From Nitrospirota bacterium (GTDB taxonomy: Bacteria; Nitrospirota; Thermodesulfovibrionia; Thermodesulfovibrionales; UBA1546): a stretch of DNA of 34,885 nucleotides. The position numbers were made by a program, and so were the translations under genes. The stretch's first letter is position 1. Every line of letters starts with the position of its first letter. The stretch lies in assembly GCA_004298625.1 (NCBI GenBank), contig SCSY01000159.1:1-34885 (forward strand), read 5' to 3'. This document shows positions 4,801-27,095 of the stretch, piece after piece. The notes under the pieces are model-generated. The model did no database searches. It had not been told where the DNA came from and saw nothing but the letters and a program-made list of their open reading frames with translations.

Positions 4801-6340
4801 ACCCAAAATACTTTGTGTTGACGATGAGCCTGCAAATCTTAAACTCCTCGAAGCAATGCTTGAGCCGAGAGGTTATGAGGTGGTCAAGGCTGAGGACGGC
4901 ATAGAGGCGCTGGAGAAGATTAAAGAGCACAATATCGCCCTTGCGCTTCTGGATGTTATGTTGCCGAAGGTCAATGGTTTCGAGGTCTGCAGGATGATTA
5001 AAGGCGATGAAATGTACAGGCATATCCCCGTAGTTTTTGTTACCGGCCTGACGGCGCAGGAAGACAGGATAAAGGGCATTGCGGCAGGCGCGGAGGACTT
5101 TGTATCCAAACCCTTTGACCAGGGAGAGATACTTGCGAGGATAGATATGCTTCTCAAGGTCAGGGATCTGAACAACAGGCTCAATTCCGCATATAACACG
5201 ATAACAAATCTGATAACCTTCGGGAAAAACATAGCAATGACTTTTGACCCGCTTGATTTCGACTTCCTGTCGAGGATTGACAGCAGCATTGCCCGGTTTA
5301 TAAAAAACTCGCCCGACATGATTGACAAGCCTCAGATTGTCGTTGTCGGCATAGCCTCGGCTTCTTCACCCCTACTCGTTAGGGGAGGCGCGGCAGGAGG
5401 ATGGCAGTGGTATAGGTATGAGTCGGACTCAGGCGAGTTGAGAAGGACGCCGATTGATTCCGGCATCTATAAGTATCTGGAATTGCCTCCTGACGGCAGT
5501 TCAAAAACAGCCTTTTATAACGAGGCTGATTTAAGGGGATCGGGGTTGGGATTGTTTACTGACAAGCTTGAGACGATGTCGGTCAAGGCGTCGAATATGG
5601 TCTGTTTTGTAAGCGGAGCTTTCTGCGTCTTTGCCGTTAATTATGCCAGGGCTGTTTCCATGTTCGATGCAGAGGTGTTAAACAGCATAGTGATGCAGGA
5701 CCTTTATTTAAAATCCCTTGCGTCTCAGGTAAAGGAGACGGAGGATGCCTTCGATTACCTTGTATTTGCCCTTGCAAGGGCGGCGGAAGCCAATGACGAG
5801 GATACAGGGAATCATATCATGAGGGTCGGCGAGTATTGCGCGCTTATAGCACGGCAGCTCGGGATGCCGGAGAAGTTTTCGGATATTTTCCGCATCCAGG
5901 CCACCCTCCACGACGTTGGAAAAATCCATGTGTCTCCGCTGGTGCTCAAAAAACCGGGGAAGCTTACGCCGGAGGAATTCGAGCAAATGAAAAGGCATCC
6001 CGTATATGGAGCCATGATACTCGGAGATCATGTTAGGCTTAAACTTGCAAAATCCATAGCCCTTACGCATCACGAAAGATGGGATGGAAGCGGTTATCCT
6101 TACGGGCTGAAGGGCGAGCAGATACCTATAGAAGGAAGAATATTAAACATAGCAGACCAGTATGATGCCCTGAGGAACCCGCGTCCCTATAAACCTGCCC
6201 TGGATCACCCGACAACATATAAAATAATCGCAGAGGGCGACGGCAGGACCTTGCCGGGCCATTTCGATCCTGCAGTGCTGAAGGCATTTAAAGAAACCGT
6301 CTCACAATTTGAAGATATTTATGAAAGGCTGAAGGGATAG
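4775..6340 (+). CDS. Response regulator with C-terminal HD-GYP phosphodiesterase domain (RpfG-like); central ~200 aa of unknown function
   Basis: REC motifs [26 protein letters not shown] motifs [29 protein letters not shown]. Overlaps the kinase 2 stop. An alternative ATG at 4787 follows GGAGGA. Confidence 0.9.
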
Positions 6341-21894: not shown

Positions 21895-23295
21895 GTGAAA
21901 AACTTGACCGATTCTGAAAATCAAATCCTTATACTCGGCGGGGGACTCACAGGGCTTTCAGCCGGATATGTCCTTACAGGCTCGGGGTTCCGCGTCAAAG
22001 TGTTCGAGAGGGACGATGCAGTCGGCGGACTTTCAAAGACTATTATCCATAACGGCTTTCGTTTTGATTTAGGCGGGCACAGATTTTTTACAAAAGATAA
22101 TAAAGTAAATGATTTCGTGAAAAGCCTGATGGATGAAGAACTGATTGAGGTTGCGCGCAAAAGTAAGATTTATATGCGCAACAGGTATTTCGATTATCCG
22201 CTTAAACCCGTAAATGCCATATTCGGTATGGGCCTCCCGACTACACTTAAGATTATATCCGACTATGGCCTTGAGAAGATTAAAAAACTCATAAAAGAGC
22301 CGGATAATATTTCTCTCGAAGACTGGGTAGTCGGTAATTTCGGCCGCAAGATGTTTGACATCTATTTCAAGGAATACAGCGAAAAGGTGTGGGGCATCAA
22401 CTGCGACAGGATTAGCTCTGAATGGGTGGAGCAGCGCATAAGAGGGCTTTCCCTTGCAAAGGCCGTTAAGAACGCCTTTTTCAAGGTGAATGGGAAAGAT
22501 GTGCCGACACTTGCCGACAGGTTTCTATATCCGCAACTGGGCATAGGGCGCATTTCCGACAGGTTGAGGGAGGAGATAGACAGGCACAATGATGTGTTTA
22601 CCGGCACAGGCGTGAAATGTATTAACCACTCTGATTACAGGATAGAGGGCATTGAGGTTGGAAACCCGTTGCATTCCGGTGTAATACATGGAAGGGAAAT
22701 TATATCAAGCATACCAATGAATAAGCTGGTCCTGATGCTTAATCCGTCTCCGCCTGAGGATATTCTCGATGCAGCTTTAAAACTGAAGTTCAGGGATATT
22801 GTCATAGTGACGGTAATGATTGACAGAGAAAGAGTTACGGATCAGACATGGATATATGTCCCTGAAAAGAAGATACCTTTCGGCAGGATCCACGAGCCTA
22901 CGAACTGGAGCAGGAAGATGGCCCCCGAAGGCAAGACGCTTATCGTGACGGAGTTTTTCAGCTTTAAAGGCGACGGGATATGGAATGAGAACGATGAACG
23001 GCTCGTTGCTGTTACTGTTGAGAATCTGGAAAAACTTGGATTTATTAAGAAGCATGAGGTGATAGACAGCGCCGTGGTAAGGGTGCCCGGGGCCTATCCT
23101 TTGTTTGAGGTGGGATATAAAGAATTGTGCGATAAATTATATGATTATTTAAGCAGGTTCGGGAATCTCCATATCGCGGGCAGGGGTGGGATGTTCAGAT
23201 ACTATAATATGGACCATGCGATTGAGTCCGGGATAAAGGCGGCGGAGAAAATTTTAATCAAGGCTGACAGCTATCAGCTATCAGCTATCAGCTAA
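21895..23295 (+). CDS. FAD/NAD(P)-dependent oxidoreductase (amine-oxidase / UDP-galactopyranose-mutase-like fold)
   Basis: GTG start. Dinucleotide fold ILILGGGLTGLSAGYVL..VKVFERDDAVGGL. FDLGGHRFF. Confidence 0.7.
   Translation: MKNLTDSENQILILGGGLTGLSAGYVLTGSGFRVKVFERDDAVGGLSKTIIHNGFRFDLGGHRFFTKDNKVNDFVKSLMDEELIEVARKSKIYMRNRYFDYPLKPVNAIFGMGLPTTLKIISDYGLEKIKKLIKEPDNISLEDWVVGNFGRKMFDIYFKEYSEKVWGINCDRISSEWVEQRIRGLSLAKAVKNAFFKVNGKDVPTLADRFLYPQLGIGRISDRLREEIDRHNDVFTGTGVKCINHSDYRIEGIEVGNPLHSGVIHGREIISSIPMNKLVLMLNPSPPEDILDAALKLKFRDIVIVTVMIDRERVTDQTWIYVPEKKIPFGRIHEPTNWSRKMAPEGKTLIVTEFFSFKGDGIWNENDERLVAVTVENLEKLGFIKKHEVIDSAVVRVPGAYPLFEVGYKELCDKLYDYLSRFGNLHIAGRGGMFRYYNMDHAIESGIKAAEKILIKADSYQLSAIS
23266..23293 (+). 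repeat. Heptamer array (G/A)(A/T)CAGCT x4 forming the last codons and the stop of the oxidoreductase
   Basis: GACAGCT ATCAGCT ATCAGCT ATCAGCT, with TAA at 23293-23295. Encodes the tail SYQLSAIS. The next ATG is at 23298. Confidence 0.8.
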
Positions 23296-23297
23296 AA

Positions 23298-24791
23298 ATG
23301 AGATGCGCGTTAGTAATCCCCTCATGGGTTCCTGAAGATATATTCTCTTCAAAGACGGCAAGCTCGCAGATTAATTACTGGCAGCCGTTGGGCACGCTAT
23401 ACGTTGCCGCTGTGCTTCAGAGGGCCGGGCACGAGGTTAAATTCCTAAACGGCGCATTTATTACCCACGATGAAATACTCAGAGAAATAAAAAAATTCAA
23501 ACCGGAATTTATCGGTATTTATTCAACAACCTTCGGCTGGCAAAAGGCAAAGCAGACCGCAGAAGATATAAGGAAATTAACCCCACCGGTACTCCCCTTA
23601 TCTAAGGGGAGGAGCAAGGAGGGGTTGCCATTTATATGCGCAGGAGGCCCTTATCCTATTGCAGTGCAGGAGCGTTGTCTTGAGGACGCCGGAGAATGTT
23701 TTGATGCCATAGTTACAGGAGAAGGCGAGTTCACATCTCTTGAAATAATAGAGCGGCTTCAAGCCGGTAAAAACCTTGATGGAGTCCCGGGCGTTGTTTA
23801 TAGGGAAAATGGAAAGATCATTAAAAATCCGCAAAGACCATTAATCGCTGATCTCGACTCACTGCCGTTTCCAGCAAGAGAGCTTCTGGGCGACGCTGAT
23901 TTATACATACCGCCGCCTGCGACATATAAGAGAAAACCCGTAGCGGTCTTGATGACATCCAGAGGCTGCAACAGGAGATGCATATATTGCTTCCAGATAG
24001 ACAAAGAGAGAAAAAGCGGCGTCAGATACCGCAGCGTCGAAAACGTGTTGAAAGAAATAGAGCTTTGCATTGCGCAGGGCTACAGGGAGATAAAATTCAT
24101 AGATGACACGCTGGCTGCCGATTATGACCGGGCGATGAGCATAGCTCAGGAGATAAAAAAGAGAAGACTTGATTTCACATGGTTTGCATCTGCGTGTGTG
24201 AATCAGGTTGACAGGCCGCTTCTTCAGGCATTCAAAGACGCCGGGTGCTGGGCCATACTTTTTGGAGCAGAAAGCGGGGTGCAAAAAAACCTTAATGCGA
24301 TAAAAAAAGGCACAACCCTTGAACAGATTCAAAAGGCTGTAAAGGCAGCCAAGGATGTCGGACTCAAGGTCAGCGCTCCTTTTATGTTCGGCATTCCCGG
24401 AGAGACATTTGAGGAAGGGCTTCAGACTATCGAATTTGCCGTAGACCTTAACCCTGATATGGCAAACTTTCATGCCATAACCCCATTCCCCGGCACATAC
24501 CTATACGACAATCTCGATAAATACGGAACCATATCAAATGAGCTCACGGACTATACATATCAGGGCGCTGCATTTATTCCGCATACCATGACAAGGGATG
24601 AAATCCTTAAACTCAGGCAGATAGCATTTAAGAGATTCTATTCCCGACCGTCGTTCATCCTTAAAAAACTTCTTGAACTAAGGAGCCTGAATGATCTCCT
24701 TGTTGCAGCCAAAAGCGCGAAGAGCCTGTTCTGGCTGTGGACAAAGACGGGTCTGTTCAGGAAGAAAAAAATTCCAACCCGCACAGGCTAA
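23298..24791 (+). CDS. B12-binding-domain radical SAM enzyme
   Basis: N-terminal cobalamin-domain layout (IGIYSTTF.., ICAGGPYP). Radical SAM CNRRCIYC. 497 aa. Confidence 0.85.
   Translation: MRCALVIPSWVPEDIFSSKTASSQINYWQPLGTLYVAAVLQRAGHEVKFLNGAFITHDEILREIKKFKPEFIGIYSTTFGWQKAKQTAEDIRKLTPPVLPLSKGRSKEGLPFICAGGPYPIAVQERCLEDAGECFDAIVTGEGEFTSLEIIERLQAGKNLDGVPGVVYRENGKIIKNPQRPLIADLDSLPFPARELLGDADLYIPPPATYKRKPVAVLMTSRGCNRRCIYCFQIDKERKSGVRYRSVENVLKEIELCIAQGYREIKFIDDTLAADYDRAMSIAQEIKKRRLDFTWFASACVNQVDRPLLQAFKDAGCWAILFGAESGVQKNLNAIKKGTTLEQIQKAVKAAKDVGLKVSAPFMFGIPGETFEEGLQTIEFAVDLNPDMANFHAITPFPGTYLYDNLDKYGTISNELTDYTYQGAAFIPHTMTRDEILKLRQIAFKRFYSRPSFILKKLLELRSLNDLLVAAKSAKSLFWLWTKTGLFRKKKIPTRTG
23579..23626 (+). 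repeat. In-frame GC-rich nested palindrome (48 nt)
   Basis: AACCCC accggta CTCCCCTTA tc TAAGGGGAG gagcaagga GGGGTT. Translated TPPVLPLSKGRSKEGL. Confidence 0.85.
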
Positions 24792-24847
24792 CCTAATTTT
24801 ATTGCCTCCGTCATATTAAGACAATATAACTTTCATATTTATCAGCC

Positions 24848-24876
24848 TTGACAAGCGGGCATGGGATTGATAGCAT
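24848..24876 (+). promoter_or_regulatory. Candidate sigma70-type promoter upstream of the HPF-CSD gene
   Basis: TTGACA (24848-24853), 17-nt spacer, TAGCAT (24871-24876), about 45 nt before the RBS. Confidence 0.4.
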
Positions 24877-24922
24877 GAGACTATGGATATGAAGACAATC
24901 TATTTTTTAAGGAGACGATGAT

Positions 24923-25459
24923 ATGAAACTTCCATTGCAGATAACCGCCCGTAACCTCGACCTGCCCGATGCCTTCAGGGAAAATATTCGCGACAAGGCA
25001 GAGAAACTTGACGAGTTTTATGACCGGATTATGAGGTGCAGGGTTGTTGTGGAATCACCGCACAGGCATAGTCATGAAGGGATAAAATATAACGTGCATA
25101 TTGAGATGACAGTGCCTGGAGCCGAGCTGGTAATAAAACGAGAGCCCAACGAAGATCTTAATGTGGCGATAAGGGATGCATTTGATGCAGCGCGCCGCAG
25201 GTTGGAAGATTTTGCCAGAAAGCAGAGGGGCGATGTCAAGCAGCGCGAGGAGACAGGGCATGCGAGCGTAACCAGGATATTCCCGGATAAGGGCTACGGG
25301 TTTTTGACTACGCAGGACGGCAGGGAAATATATTTTCACAAAAACAGCGTTCTGCACGACAAATTCAAGCATCTGAAACCAGGCATGGAGGTGCGTTTTG
25401 CGGAAGAGGAAGGTGAAAAAGGACCGCAGGCCAGCACAGTTACTGTAATAAAAGGCTGA
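24923..25459 (+). CDS. Ribosome hibernation factor (HPF/RaiA, S30AE) domain fused to a cold-shock domain
   Basis: N-terminal MKLPLQITARNLDLPDAFRENIRDKAEKL..YNVHIEMTVPG. C-terminal CSD with ITRIFPDKGYGFLTTQDGREIYFH. Confidence 0.75.
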   Translation: MKLPLQITARNLDLPDAFRENIRDKAEKLDEFYDRIMRCRVVVESPHRHSHEGIKYNVHIEMTVPGAELVIKREPNEDLNVAIRDAFDAARRRLEDFARKQRGDVKQREETGHASVTRIFPDKGYGFLTTQDGREIYFHKNSVLHDKFKHLKPGMEVRFAEEEGEKGPQASTVTVIKG

Positions 25460-25490
25460 TCCCCCAGTTGGTAAATTTTTGCTCCTGTTT

Positions 25491-25534
25491 AAAAAAAAAA
25501 GAAAGCCCCCTTGCTCGGCAAGGGGGCTTTTGCG
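25491..25534. terminator. Bidirectional rho-independent terminator shared by the convergent HPF-CSD and cspA genes
   Basis: A10, then AAAGCCCCCTTGC tcg GCAAGGGGGCTTT, then TTTT-containing tail. Confidence 0.85.
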
Positions 25535-25539
25535 TTCGA

Positions 25540-25740
25540 TTAGAGCTTTACTACATTGACTGCTTTGGGACCTTTTGGCCCTTTTTCAACGTCAAAGCTG
25601 ACTGAATCGCCCTCGGCAAGGACCTTGAATCCATTGCCCTGGATAGACGAATAGTGGACAAAAACATCGCTGCCGTCTTCGCTTGTGATGAAGCCAAAAC
25701 CTTTGGATTCGTTGAACCACTTTACTTTTCCATTAGCCAT
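25540..25740 (-). CDS. cspA: Cold-shock protein (CspA family)
   Basis: [38 protein letters not shown]. Confidence 0.95.
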
Positions 25741-25791
25741 ACTTTTTACCTCCTTACTATGATCTAAAGTTTCAGAAAAATTCTGACTGAA

Positions 25792-25830
25792 TAAAAAAAG
25801 GCCACAAAGCTAAAAGTCTTTGTGGCCTTT
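25792..25830 (-). terminator. Terminator-like hairpin plus U-run, about 50 nt upstream of the cspA start on its own strand
   Basis: Minus strand reads AAAGGCCACAAAG acttttag CTTTGTGGCCTTT TTTTATT. It could terminate the upstream radical-SAM gene, or act as a leader attenuator of cspA, or both. Confidence 0.6.
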
Positions 25831-25879
25831 CCATTTCCATGTATTTGCTAACAACAAAAACTTCTGAATCTTCCCGCAT

Positions 25880-25908
25880 ATAATGGCATCTCCGACAGCA
25901 AAAGTCAA
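25880..25908 (-). promoter_or_regulatory. Candidate sigma70-type promoter for cspA, located upstream of the terminator-like hairpin
   Basis: Minus strand: TTGACT (25908-25903), 17-nt spacer, CATTAT (25885-25880). Confidence 0.3.
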
Positions 25909-25979
25909 TAGCCGGCGCAAATTTTTTTGGAAGAGGCGGTTGGGCGTGCGCTGTCTAAATATTTGCGTATATAAATTTT

Positions 25980-27095
25980 TCATCGGATTTGAATATATTC
26001 TTTTGCAAGCTTATGATACAGCTTCGGATTGAACAGGATGTTTGTCATAAAATAACACTCGTGTGTGCAAAAGCATTGTCTTTTCCGTATTGAATCAATT
26101 ATCCGCCGGGCTTTTTCCGACTGGATAATTCTCTCCATGTCGTAATCATAATTCTTTACATTTCCAAAACTGTCCGTAAGGATCTCGCATGGGAAGACAT
26201 CGCCATTTTCCGTCAGCACAAGGTTCAGCCTGCCGGCATAGCACGGGATAAGGCGTTTTTGTTCGAGCAGGGTCTGATGTATCAGGCGGCGCTGCAGAAT
26301 ATCCTGCGCGGCCTTAATGCGCGCCCCTTTGAATCTGTAGGTCGGCGCTTTTTTATCTCTAAGGTTTTTTTCAAGCTTTTCAATGGCAAGAAAATATTTT
26401 CCAATATCAACATCCTTGTAGCTTTCGTCCGGGATATTTCCCCGTATCAGAGAGATTGTATGTGTCTTTATTTTTTTAAGCGAGCCGGCAAAGTCAATTA
26501 TCTCATCCATCCTGTCCTGATTCTTCGAGCAAAAAACCGTATTGATCCCCAGTTCGAAATTAGGGTATTTGTCAATGAGGTTTTCAAGCAGGTGGTATGT
26601 CTCCAGCGTTTTCCCGAAACTTCCCTGAGTATTCCTGATTTCATCATGCAGCCCGTAAAGGCCGTCAATGGAGAGTTTTACGACAATTATGCTTTTCGGA
26701 GAATTTTTAAGTATCTGCTCTGTCCTTTCTTTAATCAGTTCGGGAAGCAGGCCGTTTGTAGGGAAGAGCATTATGGACGGTTTATTATTTTTATAAAAAA
26801 TTCTGCTTATCTCGACAAGGTCGTCTCTGAGAAATATTTCGCCTCCTGAAAAGGCGAGCCAGAGAAGGCTGCCGAGCGATTTTGATATTTTCTGTATTTC
26901 ATCGAGCGTGAGCTCATCCGATACCCCCCCTCCGCCCCCCCTTGTTAAGGGGGGGATTGGGGGGGTGCTTTTCAAATAAAAACAGAACGGGCATTTTGAA
27001 TTACACCTTTTGGTTACAAAAAATGTAAGATGAATCGGTCTTCTTTTATAGAAGATAGAAGGAGTATGGCGTAATAACCGGTGCATTAGACTCAC
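25980..27095 (-). CDS. Radical SAM enzyme with C-terminal SPASM/twitch-type Cys cluster
   Basis: CNSKCPFC near the N-terminus. C-terminal IPCYAG..VFPCE..CFCTHEC. Confidence 0.8.
   Translation of the reverse strand: MSLMHRLLRHTPSIFYKRRPIHLTFFVTKRCNSKCPFCFYLKSTPPIPPLTRGGGGGVSDELTLDEIQKISKSLGSLLWLAFSGGEIFLRDDLVEISRIFYKNNKPSIMLFPTNGLLPELIKERTEQILKNSPKSIIVVKLSIDGLYGLHDEIRNTQGSFGKTLETYHLLENLIDKYPNFELGINTVFCSKNQDRMDEIIDFAGSLKKIKTHTISLIRGNIPDESYKDVDIGKYFLAIEKLEKNLRDKKAPTYRFKGARIKAAQDILQRRLIHQTLLEQKRLIPCYAGRLNLVLTENGDVFPCEILTDSFGNVKNYDYDMERIIQSEKARRIIDSIRKRQCFCTHECYFMTNILFNPKLYHKLAKEYIQIR
26924..26965. repeat. In-frame C7/G7 nested palindrome (42 nt)
   Basis: CCCCCCC tccg CCCCCCC ttgttaa GGGGGGG att GGGGGGG. 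Translated on the minus strand as PPIPPLTRGGGGGV, directly after the CX3CX2C motif. Confidence 0.85.

What the first reader, a model, noticed from the sequence alone, without database searches (positions are those of the whole stretch)
26924..26965. 42-nt C7/G7 nested palindrome in frame just after the CX3CX2C motif of the SPASM radical SAM enzyme
Seen: C7-tccg-C7-ttgttaa-G7-att-G7, which is 14 codons read on the minus strand as PPIPPLTRGGGGGV. It lies between CPFCFYLKST and SDELTLDEI. Four 7-nt homopolymers in a row are highly prone to polymerase slippage, yet the frame is intact. The element shares its core (CCCC..TT..AAGGGG) and encoded peptide style with the element at 23579. Two different radical-SAM genes within 3.5 kb therefore both carry a copy.
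Basis: partly seen in the sequence, partly recalled or inferred. Interest (0 to 1): 0.68.

Follow-up and report, generated by a model that had tools for sequence, protein, structure and literature searches.

The report
In-frame mobile C7/G7 hairpin element
The 42-nt palindrome is one copy of a roughly 45-nt nested C-run/G-run hairpin repeat that sits in frame inside hundreds of unrelated genes of uncultivated bacteria, a bacterial parallel to the selfish palindromes found in Rickettsia and yeast mitochondrial genes.

Summary
In detail: window 26924-26965 is C7-TCCG-C7-TTGTTAA-G7-ATT-G7. It lies in frame in a radical SAM/SPASM gene on the minus strand, three codons after CX3CX2C.

It is not peculiar to radical SAM enzymes. 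It is a canonical copy of a dispersed repeat, about 45 nt long: A-C7-(N)AT-C7-TT-NNC-AA-G7-C(N1-3)-G7-T.

- The ancestral linker at this site is 12 aa. Orthologues with and without the element are interleaved across the gene tree, and recombination breakpoints lie next to the element.
Of 97 evaluable copies, 95 lie inside long ORFs, in both orientations and all frames. Hosts include PurL, CarB, UvrA, ValRS, PriA, HypF and Mur ligases.
- The homopolymer arms encode Pro-Pro…Gly-Gly in any frame.
- The arms are conserved at synonymous sites far beyond neutrality, in two independent sets of orthologues.
- The element at 23579 is a real second copy, of a degenerate subfamily. It is a lineage-specific insertion of 36 nt net.

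Best reading: a REP/RPE-like selfish palindrome adapted to coding sequence. How it moves, and why the arms stay intact, are unknown. No description was found in Rfam or in the searched literature.

The parts
26921..26967 (-). Complete element as matched by the family covariance model. Sense strand: (GC)A-C7-AAT-C7-TTAACAA-G7-CGGA-G7-T(AT). Encodes T-P-P-I-P-P-L-T-R-G-G-G-G-G-V.
   Evidence: 65.1 bits, E = 3e-14; fold of -36.5 kcal/mol.
26924..26930 (.). Outer arm, C7 on the + strand (the outer G7 of the mRNA). Pairs with 26959-26965.
26931..26934 (.). Internal-loop spacer, TCCG on + (CGGA in the mRNA). This position varies between copies (CGAT, CGAA, CAATT, CAA...).
26935..26941 (.). Inner arm, C7. 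Pairs with 26949-26955.
26942..26948 (.). TT-GTT-AA: two closing T-A pairs and a 3-nt apical loop. In the family orientation, TT-NNC-AA, the first two loop bases vary between copies.
26949..26955 (.). Inner arm, G7.
26956..26958 (.). Short spacer, ATT on + (AAT in the mRNA). The family consensus is (N)AT.
26959..26965 (.). Outer arm, G7.
25980..27095 (-). Host gene, a radical SAM/SPASM enzyme. The database version, P0001, is 368 aa and starts at the ATG at 27086. The element follows the CX3CX2C cluster loop and precedes helix alpha-1.
23579..23625 (+). Second family member, of a degenerate short-arm subfamily (AACCCC...GGGGTT). Encodes (L)TPPVLPLSKGRSKEGL. It is a lineage-specific insertion in a loop of the B12-binding domain.
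   Evidence: 13 orthologues have 5-6 aa where the window has 18; 38.1 bits.
23298..24791 (+). Host gene of the second copy, a B12-binding radical SAM enzyme.

Best explanation
The palindrome is a copy of a non-autonomous, selfish palindromic DNA repeat. It resembles REP, RPE and yeast mitochondrial GC-cluster elements and is about 45 nt long, with two nested stems made of C7/G7 homopolymers.

**Shown:**
- It was acquired in a variable surface-loop linker of the radical SAM/SPASM gene.
- It is translated as part of the ORF.
- It belongs to a family with hundreds of near-identical copies in unrelated genes of many uncultivated bacteria.
- The filled and empty states of the site are shuffled between lineages by homologous recombination next to the element.
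- Further elements insert into or beside existing ones.

**Inferred:**
- The element survives inside genes because its design is neutral with respect to coding. C runs and G runs give Pro-Pro and Gly-Gly in every frame, the reverse complement is nearly the same sequence, and only the few loop and spacer bases can create a stop. Any in-frame insertion therefore adds a flexible Pro/Gly loop.
- The mechanism of copying is not established. The best guess is mobilisation of the folded single strand in trans by a hairpin-recognising enzyme of the HUH/Y1 type (RAYT or IS200/IS605-like), or gene-conversion or template-switch copying between copies.
- The unusual preservation of the arms is attributed to one of three causes: copying competence with concerted evolution among the many genomic copies, arm-to-arm templated correction, or direct selection on the hairpin.
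For: **The element is an insertion.**
- 27 of 34 species-representative genomes carry a 10-12-aa linker (LKSTDxxxDKSE) at this site. Element-bearing orthologues have 19-23 aa.
- The 23579 copy is absent from all 13 orthologues compared.

**It is a family.**
- The same architecture lies in frame in a GT2 gene (L007, L045) and a PMT_2 gene (L045), and in intergenic DNA (L045, L010) of related Nitrospirota.
- A metagenome scan for the 24-nt core gave more than 120 loci, against roughly 0.1 expected by chance (my estimate). Nearly all of the hits also carry the outer arms, which the pattern did not require.
- Extra copies near these anchor hits occur at about 1 per 10 kb (about 90 over 917 kb), and up to 9 in 12 kb.

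**Its habitat is coding sequence.**
- 95 of 97 copies lie in open stretches of at least 150 aa, against 0.89 of random windows on the same contigs (p = 0.001). All six strand/phase combinations are used.
- Host genes are housekeeping genes with Pfam domains on both sides of the insert.

**No target-site duplication.** The palindrome extends to W-Y-A...T-R-W and the flanks beyond that are random.

**Nesting and arrays** occur in L051, L006, L276 and P0129.

**Recombination.** P0002 (filled) and P0004 (empty) are 93-97% identical over the 3' 930 nt but only 72% identical in the first 120 nt. There, the filled alleles pair with filled and the empty with empty.

**Decay and deletion remnants** exist: L004, L050, P0005, P0032.

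**Subfamilies track the G+C content of the host contig** (p = 2e-6).
Against: - No transposase or other mobilising gene was found or tested for.
- No target-site duplication is present.
- At the resolved filled/empty pairs the element replaces 13-17 nt of target rather than being a clean insertion, with a net gain of +30 nt (P0010/P0059 and GH63 site 1). At the sulfatase site (net +33, protein level) it replaces three residues, and the B12 site gains a net +36. That does not look like classical transposition.
- The arms are far better conserved than a decaying selfish insert should be. Identity at four-fold third positions is 0.76 in the arms and 0.39 in the rest of the gene. The element is 98-100% identical between GH63 orthologues whose upstream flanks are 73-83% identical.
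- That conservation is not explained by recent co-transfer of the flanks. Some function or homogenising process therefore acts on the element.
- The exact-match scan selects copies with intact inner arms, which biases the coding-fraction estimate. Model-detected neighbouring copies are 86% in ORFs, no different from random positions.
Confidence: 0.72

Rival explanations
1. The hairpin is a functional nucleic-acid signal kept by selection inside genes. It could act as an mRNA structure that paces translation at domain linkers or stabilises the message, as a G-quadruplex/hairpin switch (G7-N4-G7 fits G3N1G3N4G3N1G3), or as a DNA cruciform bound by a host protein. Its spread would then be secondary.
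For: - The arms are conserved at synonymous sites well beyond the rest of the gene (0.76 versus 0.39). CCC makes up 74% of Pro codons inside the element and 23% outside; GGG makes up 66% of Gly codons inside and 18% outside.
- The element is 98-100% identical across GH63 orthologues with 73-83% identical upstream flanks.
- There is no hitch-hiking of the flanks.
- The fold is very stable.
- Copies lie in linkers and loops between domains.
- There is a mild orientation bias, 61 to 34.
Against: - Most orthologues of every host gene examined lack the element and keep a short linker.
- Copies decay without compensatory change in some lineages (L004, L050, the L045 GT2 copy).
- Host genes are functionally unrelated.
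- Homopolymer arms allow no covariation test.
- No Rfam family matches.
Confidence: 0.2
2. The insert is selected at the protein level, as a Pro/Gly-rich hinge or a short linear motif (PPxPPL-x-[KR]GG) that benefits the host enzymes. The DNA palindrome would then be a by-product.
For: - The peptide is retained in many orthologues.
- It sits in a predicted coil between beta-1 and alpha-1.
Against: - The same DNA is read in all six frames and gives different peptides: SPPHPPLTKGGQRGG, TPPIPPLTRGGEGGV, TPPSPPYQGGARGG, PPQPPLGKGGIEGG, PPLVRGGWGG and PPAPPCEGGDGG.
- Protein-level selection would not fix CCC and GGG codons in a genome of about 44% G+C.
- Some copies are intergenic.
Confidence: 0.04
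3. The four homopolymer tracts form a phase-variation (contingency) switch that turns the radical SAM gene on and off by slippage.
For: - Seven-nt and longer C/G runs are classical slippage substrates.
- Run lengths differ between copies and orthologues.
Against: - Every orthologue and about 98% of the family copies are in frame.
- Hosts include essential single-copy genes (ValRS, CarB, PurL, UvrA, PriA, Mur ligases).
- The architecture is a conserved nested palindrome, not a single variable tract.
Confidence: 0.02
4. Sequencing or assembly artefact.
For: G/C homopolymers and hairpins are error-prone for some sequencing platforms.
Against: - The same element occurs at the same codon position in independent ENA, JGI, NCBI and Logan assemblies.
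- ORFs and Pfam domains continue on both sides of it.
- Orthologous sites are shared across species.
Confidence: 0.01

Closest known systems
Rickettsia palindromic elements (RPE; Ogata et al. 2000, as summarised in PMC3184786 and PMC3733652)
   Same: - Palindromic repeats inserted in frame inside functional protein-coding genes and translated as extra loops.
- Patchy presence among orthologues.
- Interpreted as selfish DNA.
   Different: - RPEs are about 105-146 bp, are restricted to Rickettsia, and some subfamilies carry a CGTC tag.
- This element is about 45 nt, is built of C7/G7 homopolymers, is found in contigs of 36-69% G+C, and is readable in all six frames.
REP / REPIN elements and intragenic GTAG/CGTC REPs (Di Nocera et al. 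2013, PMC3733652; Bertels and Rainey 2011, PMC3116915)
   Same: - Short (20-40 nt) G+C-rich imperfect palindromes in high copy number.
- Occur as dimers and clusters.
- A minority of REPs lie inside genes, including uvrA, as seen here for UvrA.
   Different: - REPs are mainly extragenic and carry a GTAG or CGTC tag, and GTAG REPs flank RAYT genes.
- Here 98% of the window-type copies are intragenic and the ends are A...T / TYA...TRA with no tag.
- No RAYT association has been shown.
Yeast mitochondrial GC clusters and the 'byp' elements of Magnusiomyces (review PMC8811140)
   Same: - Short G+C-rich palindromes in a genome that is poorer in G+C.
- In-frame insertion polymorphism in a coding gene (var1).
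- Substitutions concentrate in the loops.
- They merge and nest, and they are recombination and gene-conversion hotspots. The mosaic next to the element here is comparable.
   Different: - GC clusters are organellar and mostly intergenic, with AG/TAG terminal repeats read as target-site duplications.
- Byps are skipped by the ribosome. Here there is no target-site duplication and the copies are open in frame, so no bypass is needed.
Cyanobacterial small dispersed repeats (SDR; Elhai et al. 2008, cited in PMC3116915; the paper itself is not held, so the details are from my own knowledge)
   Same: Very small (tens of nt) hairpin-forming mobile repeats that nest inside each other and can lie within conserved and coding regions.
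   Different: - Different sequences and hosts.
- To my knowledge, SDRs are not described as homopolymer-armed or as predominantly in frame and intragenic.
MITEs (review PMC3184786)
   Same: Non-autonomous, with terminal inverted repeats, a stable hairpin as RNA, and occasional ORF fusions.
   Different: - MITEs are usually 70-400 bp with target-site duplications and a parent IS element.
- Neither was found here.

Membership tests
REP / REPIN | Short (about 20-40 nt) imperfect G+C-rich palindrome | tested here: met
   43-47 nt, two nested stems of 8 and 9 bp. Slightly longer than typical.
REP / REPIN | Many copies per genome | tested here: inconclusive
   Over 917 kb of element-bearing contigs, about 90 model-detected copies are left after removing roughly one anchor per locus, or about 1 per 10 kb. 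One locus has 9 in 12 kb. The window has 2 in 35 kb. No complete genome was available.
REP / REPIN | Extragenic location | tested here: not met
   95 of 97 window-type copies lie inside open stretches of at least 150 aa, against 0.89 for random positions.
REP / REPIN | GTAG (or CGTC) tetranucleotide tag at one end | tested here: not met
   Position -1 is A in 67 of 73 copies and +1 is T in 68 of 73. The ends are W-Y-A / T-R-W and there is no conserved GTAG or CGTC.
REP / REPIN | Association with a RAYT (Y1 HUH) transposase gene flanked by the repeats | not tested
   No systematic scan of neighbouring ORFs was made. The gene lists of L043-L051 and L292-L295 show no transposase.
Rickettsia palindromic elements | Palindromic repeat inserted in frame in functional genes and absent from orthologues | tested here: met
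Rickettsia palindromic elements | Length about 105-146 bp and membership of the RPE-1..-8 sequence families of Rickettsia | tested here: not met
   About 45 nt, and the hosts are Nitrospirota and other environmental bacteria.
MITE | Target-site duplication flanking terminal inverted repeats | tested here: not met
   No direct repeat in the flanks of 73 copies. In filled/empty pairs 13-17 nt of target are replaced.
MITE | A parent IS element with the same terminal repeats | not tested
   No IS element was seen in the fetched loci. No search was made.
Yeast mitochondrial GC clusters / byps | Element skipped by the ribosome (byps), shown by stops or frameshifts inside the element | tested here: not met
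   Copies are open and in frame with the host ORF.
Yeast mitochondrial GC clusters / byps | Filled/empty polymorphism spread by gene conversion, with recombination hotspots | tested here: inconclusive
   There is a mosaic with breakpoints next to the element and a patchy tree. No directionality could be shown, and there is no general hitch-hiking of the flanks.
Phase-variable contingency locus | Tract-length changes that shift the frame between strains | tested here: not met
   All ten filled orthologues and about 98% of copies are in frame. No read-level data were available.
Intrinsic terminator | G+C hairpin followed by a T run at a gene end | tested here: not met
   The terminator scan does not report it, and it lies about 40 codons into an ORF. 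The 25506-25526 hairpin is a terminator and scores only 9.9 bits with the family model.
Any Rfam family | Match to a curated covariance model | tested here: not met
   Only a chance-level Pab91 hit (21 bits against a gathering score of 71, E = 1.5).

The most novel reading that the evidence does not exclude
This is an undescribed, widely distributed class of mobile hairpin adapted to coding sequence. Its C7/G7 arms make it translatable in all six frames, so protein-coding genes are its main habitat. The arms are actively kept intact, by hairpin-templated self-correction, by concerted gene conversion, or by a host function of the hairpin or G-quadruplex. It enters genes by a replacement-type event that swaps about 13-17 nt of a loop for the element, not by cut-and-paste transposition.
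Probability: 0.3. Interest if true: 0.85.

Novelty: new variant of a known kind. Interest (0 to 1): 0.7.

Why it matters
If this holds, intragenic selfish palindromes are not an oddity of Rickettsia and fungal mitochondria. They would be common in free-living, uncultivated bacteria, at hundreds of copies per genome by extrapolation, and they sit inside essential enzymes.

- **Annotation and structure prediction.** Pro/Gly-rich 'inserts' in thousands of metagenomic proteins would be repeat DNA and not lineage-specific functional loops. They could be masked.
- **Protein evolution.** The family offers a natural experiment on which loops tolerate 10-15 extra residues.
- **Mechanism.** Two observations have no current explanation: homopolymer arms that resist decay over divergences at which synonymous sites are saturated, and insertions that replace target bases. 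Either could point to a new copying or repair mechanism.
- **Practical use.** The filled and empty states are sharp strain markers and recombination tracers in Nitrospirota populations.

Tried and rejected
- **Rfam.** A scan of 22.5-27.5 kb at a permissive E-value found no family for either element.
- **Terminator reading.** Rejected.
- **Many independent insertions at one site.** I first took the patchy tree to mean this. I rejected it as the main explanation because the filled alleles share the same junctions and the same 22-aa length, and because close pairs are mosaics. Other subtypes at the same loop (L019, L051, L006, L001, P0027) are still separate events.
- **Recent patch transfer as the cause of arm conservation.** I tested whether filled alleles share more similar flanks. 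They do not: the excess of flank identity over the rest of the gene is 0.094 for filled-filled pairs, 0.083 for filled-empty pairs and 0.090 for empty-empty pairs.
- **Target-site duplication or target motif.** None was found in 73 copies beyond the palindrome itself.
- **Microhomology at the junctions.** ACACC at the rSAM site, TCA at GT2 and ATCA at GH63 are suggestive, but there are too few cases to count.
- **Viruses as carriers.** The window-type core occurs only twice in IMG/VR, although looser relatives are common there.
- **Literature.** Seven searches found analogues but no description of this family. Elhai et al. 2008 could not be read.
- **Structure model.** The AlphaFold model has low confidence at the insert (pLDDT below 50 for residues 27-59). 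It supports 'loop' only weakly, so no fold search was run.
- **Taxonomy of high-G+C hosts.** The sulfatase search gave only distant named relatives (Armatimonadota, Latescibacteria and Planctomycetota at 62% identity or less). The breadth of hosts rests on contig G+C (0.36-0.69) and not on names.
Full report
**1. The observation**

Window 26924-26965 is exactly C7-TCCG-C7-TTGTTAA-G7-ATT-G7. No match, even with three mismatches, occurs in 100 dinucleotide-preserving shuffles of the window. The repeat finder reports nested inverted arms. A26923 and T26966 add one more pair.

The element lies in minus-strand ORF 25980..27095, which carries Pfam Radical_SAM and SPASM domains. The database version of the protein, P0001, has 368 aa and starts at the ATG at 27086. 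The sense strand reads ACC CCC CCA ATC CCC CCC TTA ACA AGG GGG GGC GGA GGG GGG GTA, which is TPPIPPLTRGGGGGV. It sits directly after CNSKCPFCFYLKS and before SDELTLDEI.

As RNA the sense strand folds into an 8-bp outer stem, an internal loop, a 9-bp inner stem and a 3-nt apical loop, at -36.5 kcal/mol.

**2. It is an insertion into a variable linker**

The gene has more than 2,000 homologues. The best 120 are 60-80% identical and come from Thermodesulfovibrionales and other Nitrospirota metagenome-assembled genomes.

In 34 species-representative genomes the stretch between CPFCFY and ELSLDEI is 10-12 aa in 27 cases, typically LKSTDxxxDKSE. A subset of orthologues carries 19-23 aa of the type LKNT-PPIPPL[TSPA]RGG[GED]GGV-DKSx. 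Others carry larger composite inserts at the same place.

An AlphaFold model places the insert in a low-confidence coil (pLDDT below 50 for residues 27-59) between strand beta-1 (residues 22-26) and helix alpha-1 (64-72). This fits a tolerated loop but is weak evidence.

**3. Orthologues keep the DNA palindrome, not just the peptide**

I fetched the DNA of ten element-bearing orthologues. Eight of them keep four near-perfect C/G runs. Examples:

- L043: ACCCCCCCTATCCCCCCCTTATCAAGGGGGGGCGATGGGGGGGTA
- L048: ...AATCCCCCCCTTGACAAGGGGGGGCGAAGGGGGGGTA

L050 and L004 are decaying. Variation is concentrated in the first two apical-loop bases and the spacers.

Outside the element these genes are 67-87% identical at the nucleotide level, and four-fold third positions are near saturation at 0.388 identity. 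The third positions of the Pro and Gly codons in the arms are 0.761 identical. CCC makes up 74% of Pro codons inside the element and 23% outside. GGG makes up 66% of Gly codons inside and 18% outside.

A second, independent case behaves the same way. Four GH63-family orthologues whose upstream 150 nt are 73-83% identical carry elements that are 98-100% identical.

**4. The element is a member of a large dispersed family**

*In related Nitrospirota contigs.* The same architecture occurs at these places:

| Location | Context |
|---|---|
| L007 8295-8341 | In frame in a GT2 glycosyltransferase (SPPHPPLGKGGQGGV). The neighbouring radical SAM gene in L007 is empty. |
| L045 9294-9340 | The same GT2 site, more decayed. 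Eleven other orthologues compared are empty; L050 carries a different insert at the same loop. |
| L045 521-567 | In frame in a PMT_2 gene |
| L007 15596-15640 | In frame in another ORF |
| L045 4411-4457 and L010 5148-5223 | Intergenic |

By my own estimate about 0.1 matches would be expected by chance, given 22 specified bases.

- Nearly all of the 123 copies also carry the outer arms, which the pattern did not require. After removing duplicates and copies near contig ends, 73 fully parsed copies were used for the flank analysis; position -1 is A in 67 of them and +1 is T in 68. The palindrome extends to W-Y-A...T-R-W. Beyond that the flanks are random, with no target-site duplication.
- The contigs range from 36% to 69% G+C.
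- Loop and spacer variants differ between high- and low-G+C contigs. The first loop base is C or T in 10 of 19 high-G+C copies against 1 of 51 low-G+C copies (p = 2e-6). Subfamilies therefore track their hosts, which does not fit a single sequence being freshly exchanged.

*In viral contigs.* A looser pattern is also common in IMG/VR contigs, with more than 120 hits and many of the AAT-C6...G6-ATT subtype. The window subtype is nearly absent there, with 2 hits.

*With a covariance model.* A model built from 32 copies finds exactly two members in the window: 26921-26967 at 65.1 bits and 23579-23625 at 38.1 bits. Both were in the seed alignment. It also finds many additional copies around the metagenome anchors, up to 9 in 12 kb (L238). 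After removing roughly one anchor per locus, about 90 copies remain over 917 kb, roughly 1 per 10 kb.

**5. Its habitat is coding sequence, in every frame**

Of 97 evaluable window-type copies, 95 lie in open stretches of at least 150 aa. The figure for random 46-nt windows on the same contigs is 0.89 (binomial p = 0.001).

All six strand and phase combinations are used. Counts are 27, 18 and 16 in one orientation and 4, 12 and 18 in the other. Depending on frame, the same DNA gives:

- SPPHPPLTKGGQRGG
- TPPIPPLTRGGEGGV
- TPPSPPYQGGARGG
- PPQPPLGKGGIEGG
- PPLVRGGWGG
- PPAPPCEGGDGG

Host ORFs are ordinary, often essential genes whose Pfam domains continue on both sides of the insert: PurL, CarB, UvrA, ValRS, a P-type ATPase, HypF, PriA, Mur ligases, dihydroorotase, a class III aminotransferase, GH3, GH63 and PilM/N.

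This is direct evidence for the design argument. C runs and G runs code for Pro-Pro and Gly-Gly whatever the frame. The reverse complement is almost the same sequence. Only the loop and spacer bases, and the terminal TRA in one phase, can create a stop.

There is a caveat. The exact-match scan selects intact copies. Neighbouring copies found by profile are 86% in ORFs, the same as random positions. Some short-arm subfamilies (CAACCCCC...GGGGGTTG) are mostly intergenic. The family as a whole is therefore not excluded from genes, and the C7 subtype is essentially intragenic.

**6. The second window copy**

23579-23625 (AACCCC...CTCCCCTTATCTAAGGGGAG...AGGGGTT) encodes (L)TPPVLPLSKGRSKEGL in a loop of the B12-binding domain of gene 23298..24791.

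All 13 orthologues examined have 5-6 residues there, including two at 85% protein identity. The insertion is therefore specific to the window's lineage, with a net gain of 36 nt.

Its arms resemble the short-arm subfamily seen intergenically in L045.

**7. How the filled and empty states are distributed**

On a neighbour-joining tree of the 120 orthologues, built with the insert region removed, filled and empty alleles alternate in at least eight clades. Partial-deletion remnants also occur: P0005 (LKNTPPLPRGGGVDKKSE), P0032, P0021 and P0023.

Close pairs are mosaics:

| Pair | First 120 nt | Remaining 930 nt |
|---|---|---|
| P0002 (filled) vs P0004 (empty) | 72% | 93-97% |
| P0002 (filled) vs P0003 (filled) | 91% | 75-88% |
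| P0004 (empty) vs P0007 (empty) | 98% | 76-93% |

Homologous recombination with breakpoints next to the element therefore shuffles the two states. This recalls the gene-conversion behaviour of yeast mitochondrial GC clusters.

Across the more diverged lineages there is no excess flank similarity among filled alleles. Recent co-transfer of flanks therefore cannot explain why the arms stay intact.

The same loop has also received other subtypes: L019 (AAT type), L051 (one element nested in the loop of another), L006, L001 and P0027. Sites that tolerate, or attract, the element are hit repeatedly. The same holds for a sulfatase (P0121 and P0123 filled, P0129 an array, and a second site in P0131 and P0140) and for GH63, where two sites are filled in different combinations.

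**8. Junctions**

Where both flanks are well conserved, the element replaces target bases:

- 43 nt replace 13 nt in P0010 versus P0059.
- 47 nt replace 17 nt at GH63 site 1.
- 14 aa replace 3 aa in the sulfatase.

Net gains are +30, +30, +33 and, for the B12 site, +36 nt. These are all smaller than the element.

Short identities at the left junction (ACACC, TCA, ATCA) hint at microhomology but are too few to test. This pattern, together with the absence of a target-site duplication, does not look like classical cut-and-paste transposition. I record it as unexplained.

**9. What it most likely is**

*Shown:* a dispersed, recently and repeatedly copied palindromic repeat that inserts in frame in loops of unrelated genes, is shuffled by recombination, nests and decays.

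*Inferred:* it is selfish DNA whose homopolymer design makes it tolerable in any frame.

*Unknown:* what copies it (a hairpin-recognising HUH/Y1 enzyme, or gene conversion or template switching between copies) and why the arms resist decay (concerted evolution, arm-to-arm templated correction, or selection on an RNA or DNA structure). G7-N4-G7 also fits a G-quadruplex motif, which I did not test.

The functional-motif rival is not excluded and may coexist with selfish spread. Protein-level selection, phase variation, a terminator role and artefact are each contradicted by specific tests.

**10. Comparison with known systems, and novelty**

It works like Rickettsia palindromic elements and like intragenic REPs, and like yeast mitochondrial GC clusters. 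It fails the defining features of each:

- It is not extragenic, has no GTAG or CGTC tag and no demonstrated RAYT association, so it is not a REP.
- It is not 105-146 bp and not from Rickettsia, so it is not an RPE.
- It has no target-site duplication and no parent IS element, so it is not a MITE.
- It is not bypassed in translation, so it is not a byp.

No Rfam family matches, and seven full-text searches found no description of it. I therefore file it as a new variant of a known kind. A prior description outside the held library cannot be excluded.

Noticed in passing
window 25502-25530: CCCCCTTGCTCGGCAAGGGGG, flanked by A and T runs, lies between the convergent genes 24923..25459 (+) and 25540..25740 (-). 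It is scored as a terminator on both strands, so it is a bidirectional terminator and not a family member (9.9 bits with the family model). Near-identical hairpins follow the csp gene in L046 (5650) and occur in L003 (7771).
   Followed up: partly
window 25500-25862 (-): Rfam cspA thermoregulator (RF01766) matches at 66.3 bits (E = 1e-15), below its gathering score of 78. The match covers the cold-shock gene 25540..25740 and its leader.
   Followed up: no
window 24923-25459 (+): A 178-aa protein. Its orthologue in L043 carries Ribosomal_S30AE (hibernation factor) and cold-shock (CSD) domains in one chain, which is an unusual fusion. It is conserved next to the radical SAM gene in L043 and L044.
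   Followed up: no
window 21895-27095; L051 8997-13977; L045, L047, L049, L050: There is a conserved neighbourhood in Nitrospirota: a GT2 glycosyltransferase, the radical SAM/SPASM gene, a B12-binding radical SAM gene (best NCBIfam hit HpnJ-like, far below its cut-off) and an FAD/amino-oxidase/GLF-like oxidoreductase. This suggests an uncharacterised envelope or lipid modification pathway. In the window the csp and hpf-CSD genes are inserted between the two radical SAM genes.
   Followed up: partly
L276 6943-7003: The inner hairpin ATCCCCCCCTTATCAAGGGGGGGC recurs with an identical 12-nt spacer (AAAAATCTCTAT). It forms an in-frame tandem array (PPYQGGAKISIS repeated) inside a 639-aa ORF.
   Followed up: no
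L051 10148-10216: One AAT-type element is inserted into the apical loop of another, at the same radical SAM linker (P0025, a 37-aa linker). This is a clean example of self-nesting.
   Followed up: partly
L043 vs L292, L046, L293 (first 120 nt of the radical SAM gene): The 5' end of the gene exists as two deeply diverged haplotypes, about 70% identical, that recombine onto backgrounds 93-97% identical elsewhere. The window itself has the 'empty-type' 5' haplotype yet carries the element.
   Followed up: partly
window 5369-5385: CCCCTACTCGTTAGGGG lies in frame in a 532-aa ORF and encodes SSPLLVRGG. It may be a strongly decayed single-stem relative, but the family model did not report it.
   Followed up: no
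L285 (UvrA), L206 (PriA): Copies lie inside DNA repair and replication genes. This echoes the published remark that intragenic REPs often sit in uvrA, uvrB and similar genes (PMC3733652).
   Followed up: no
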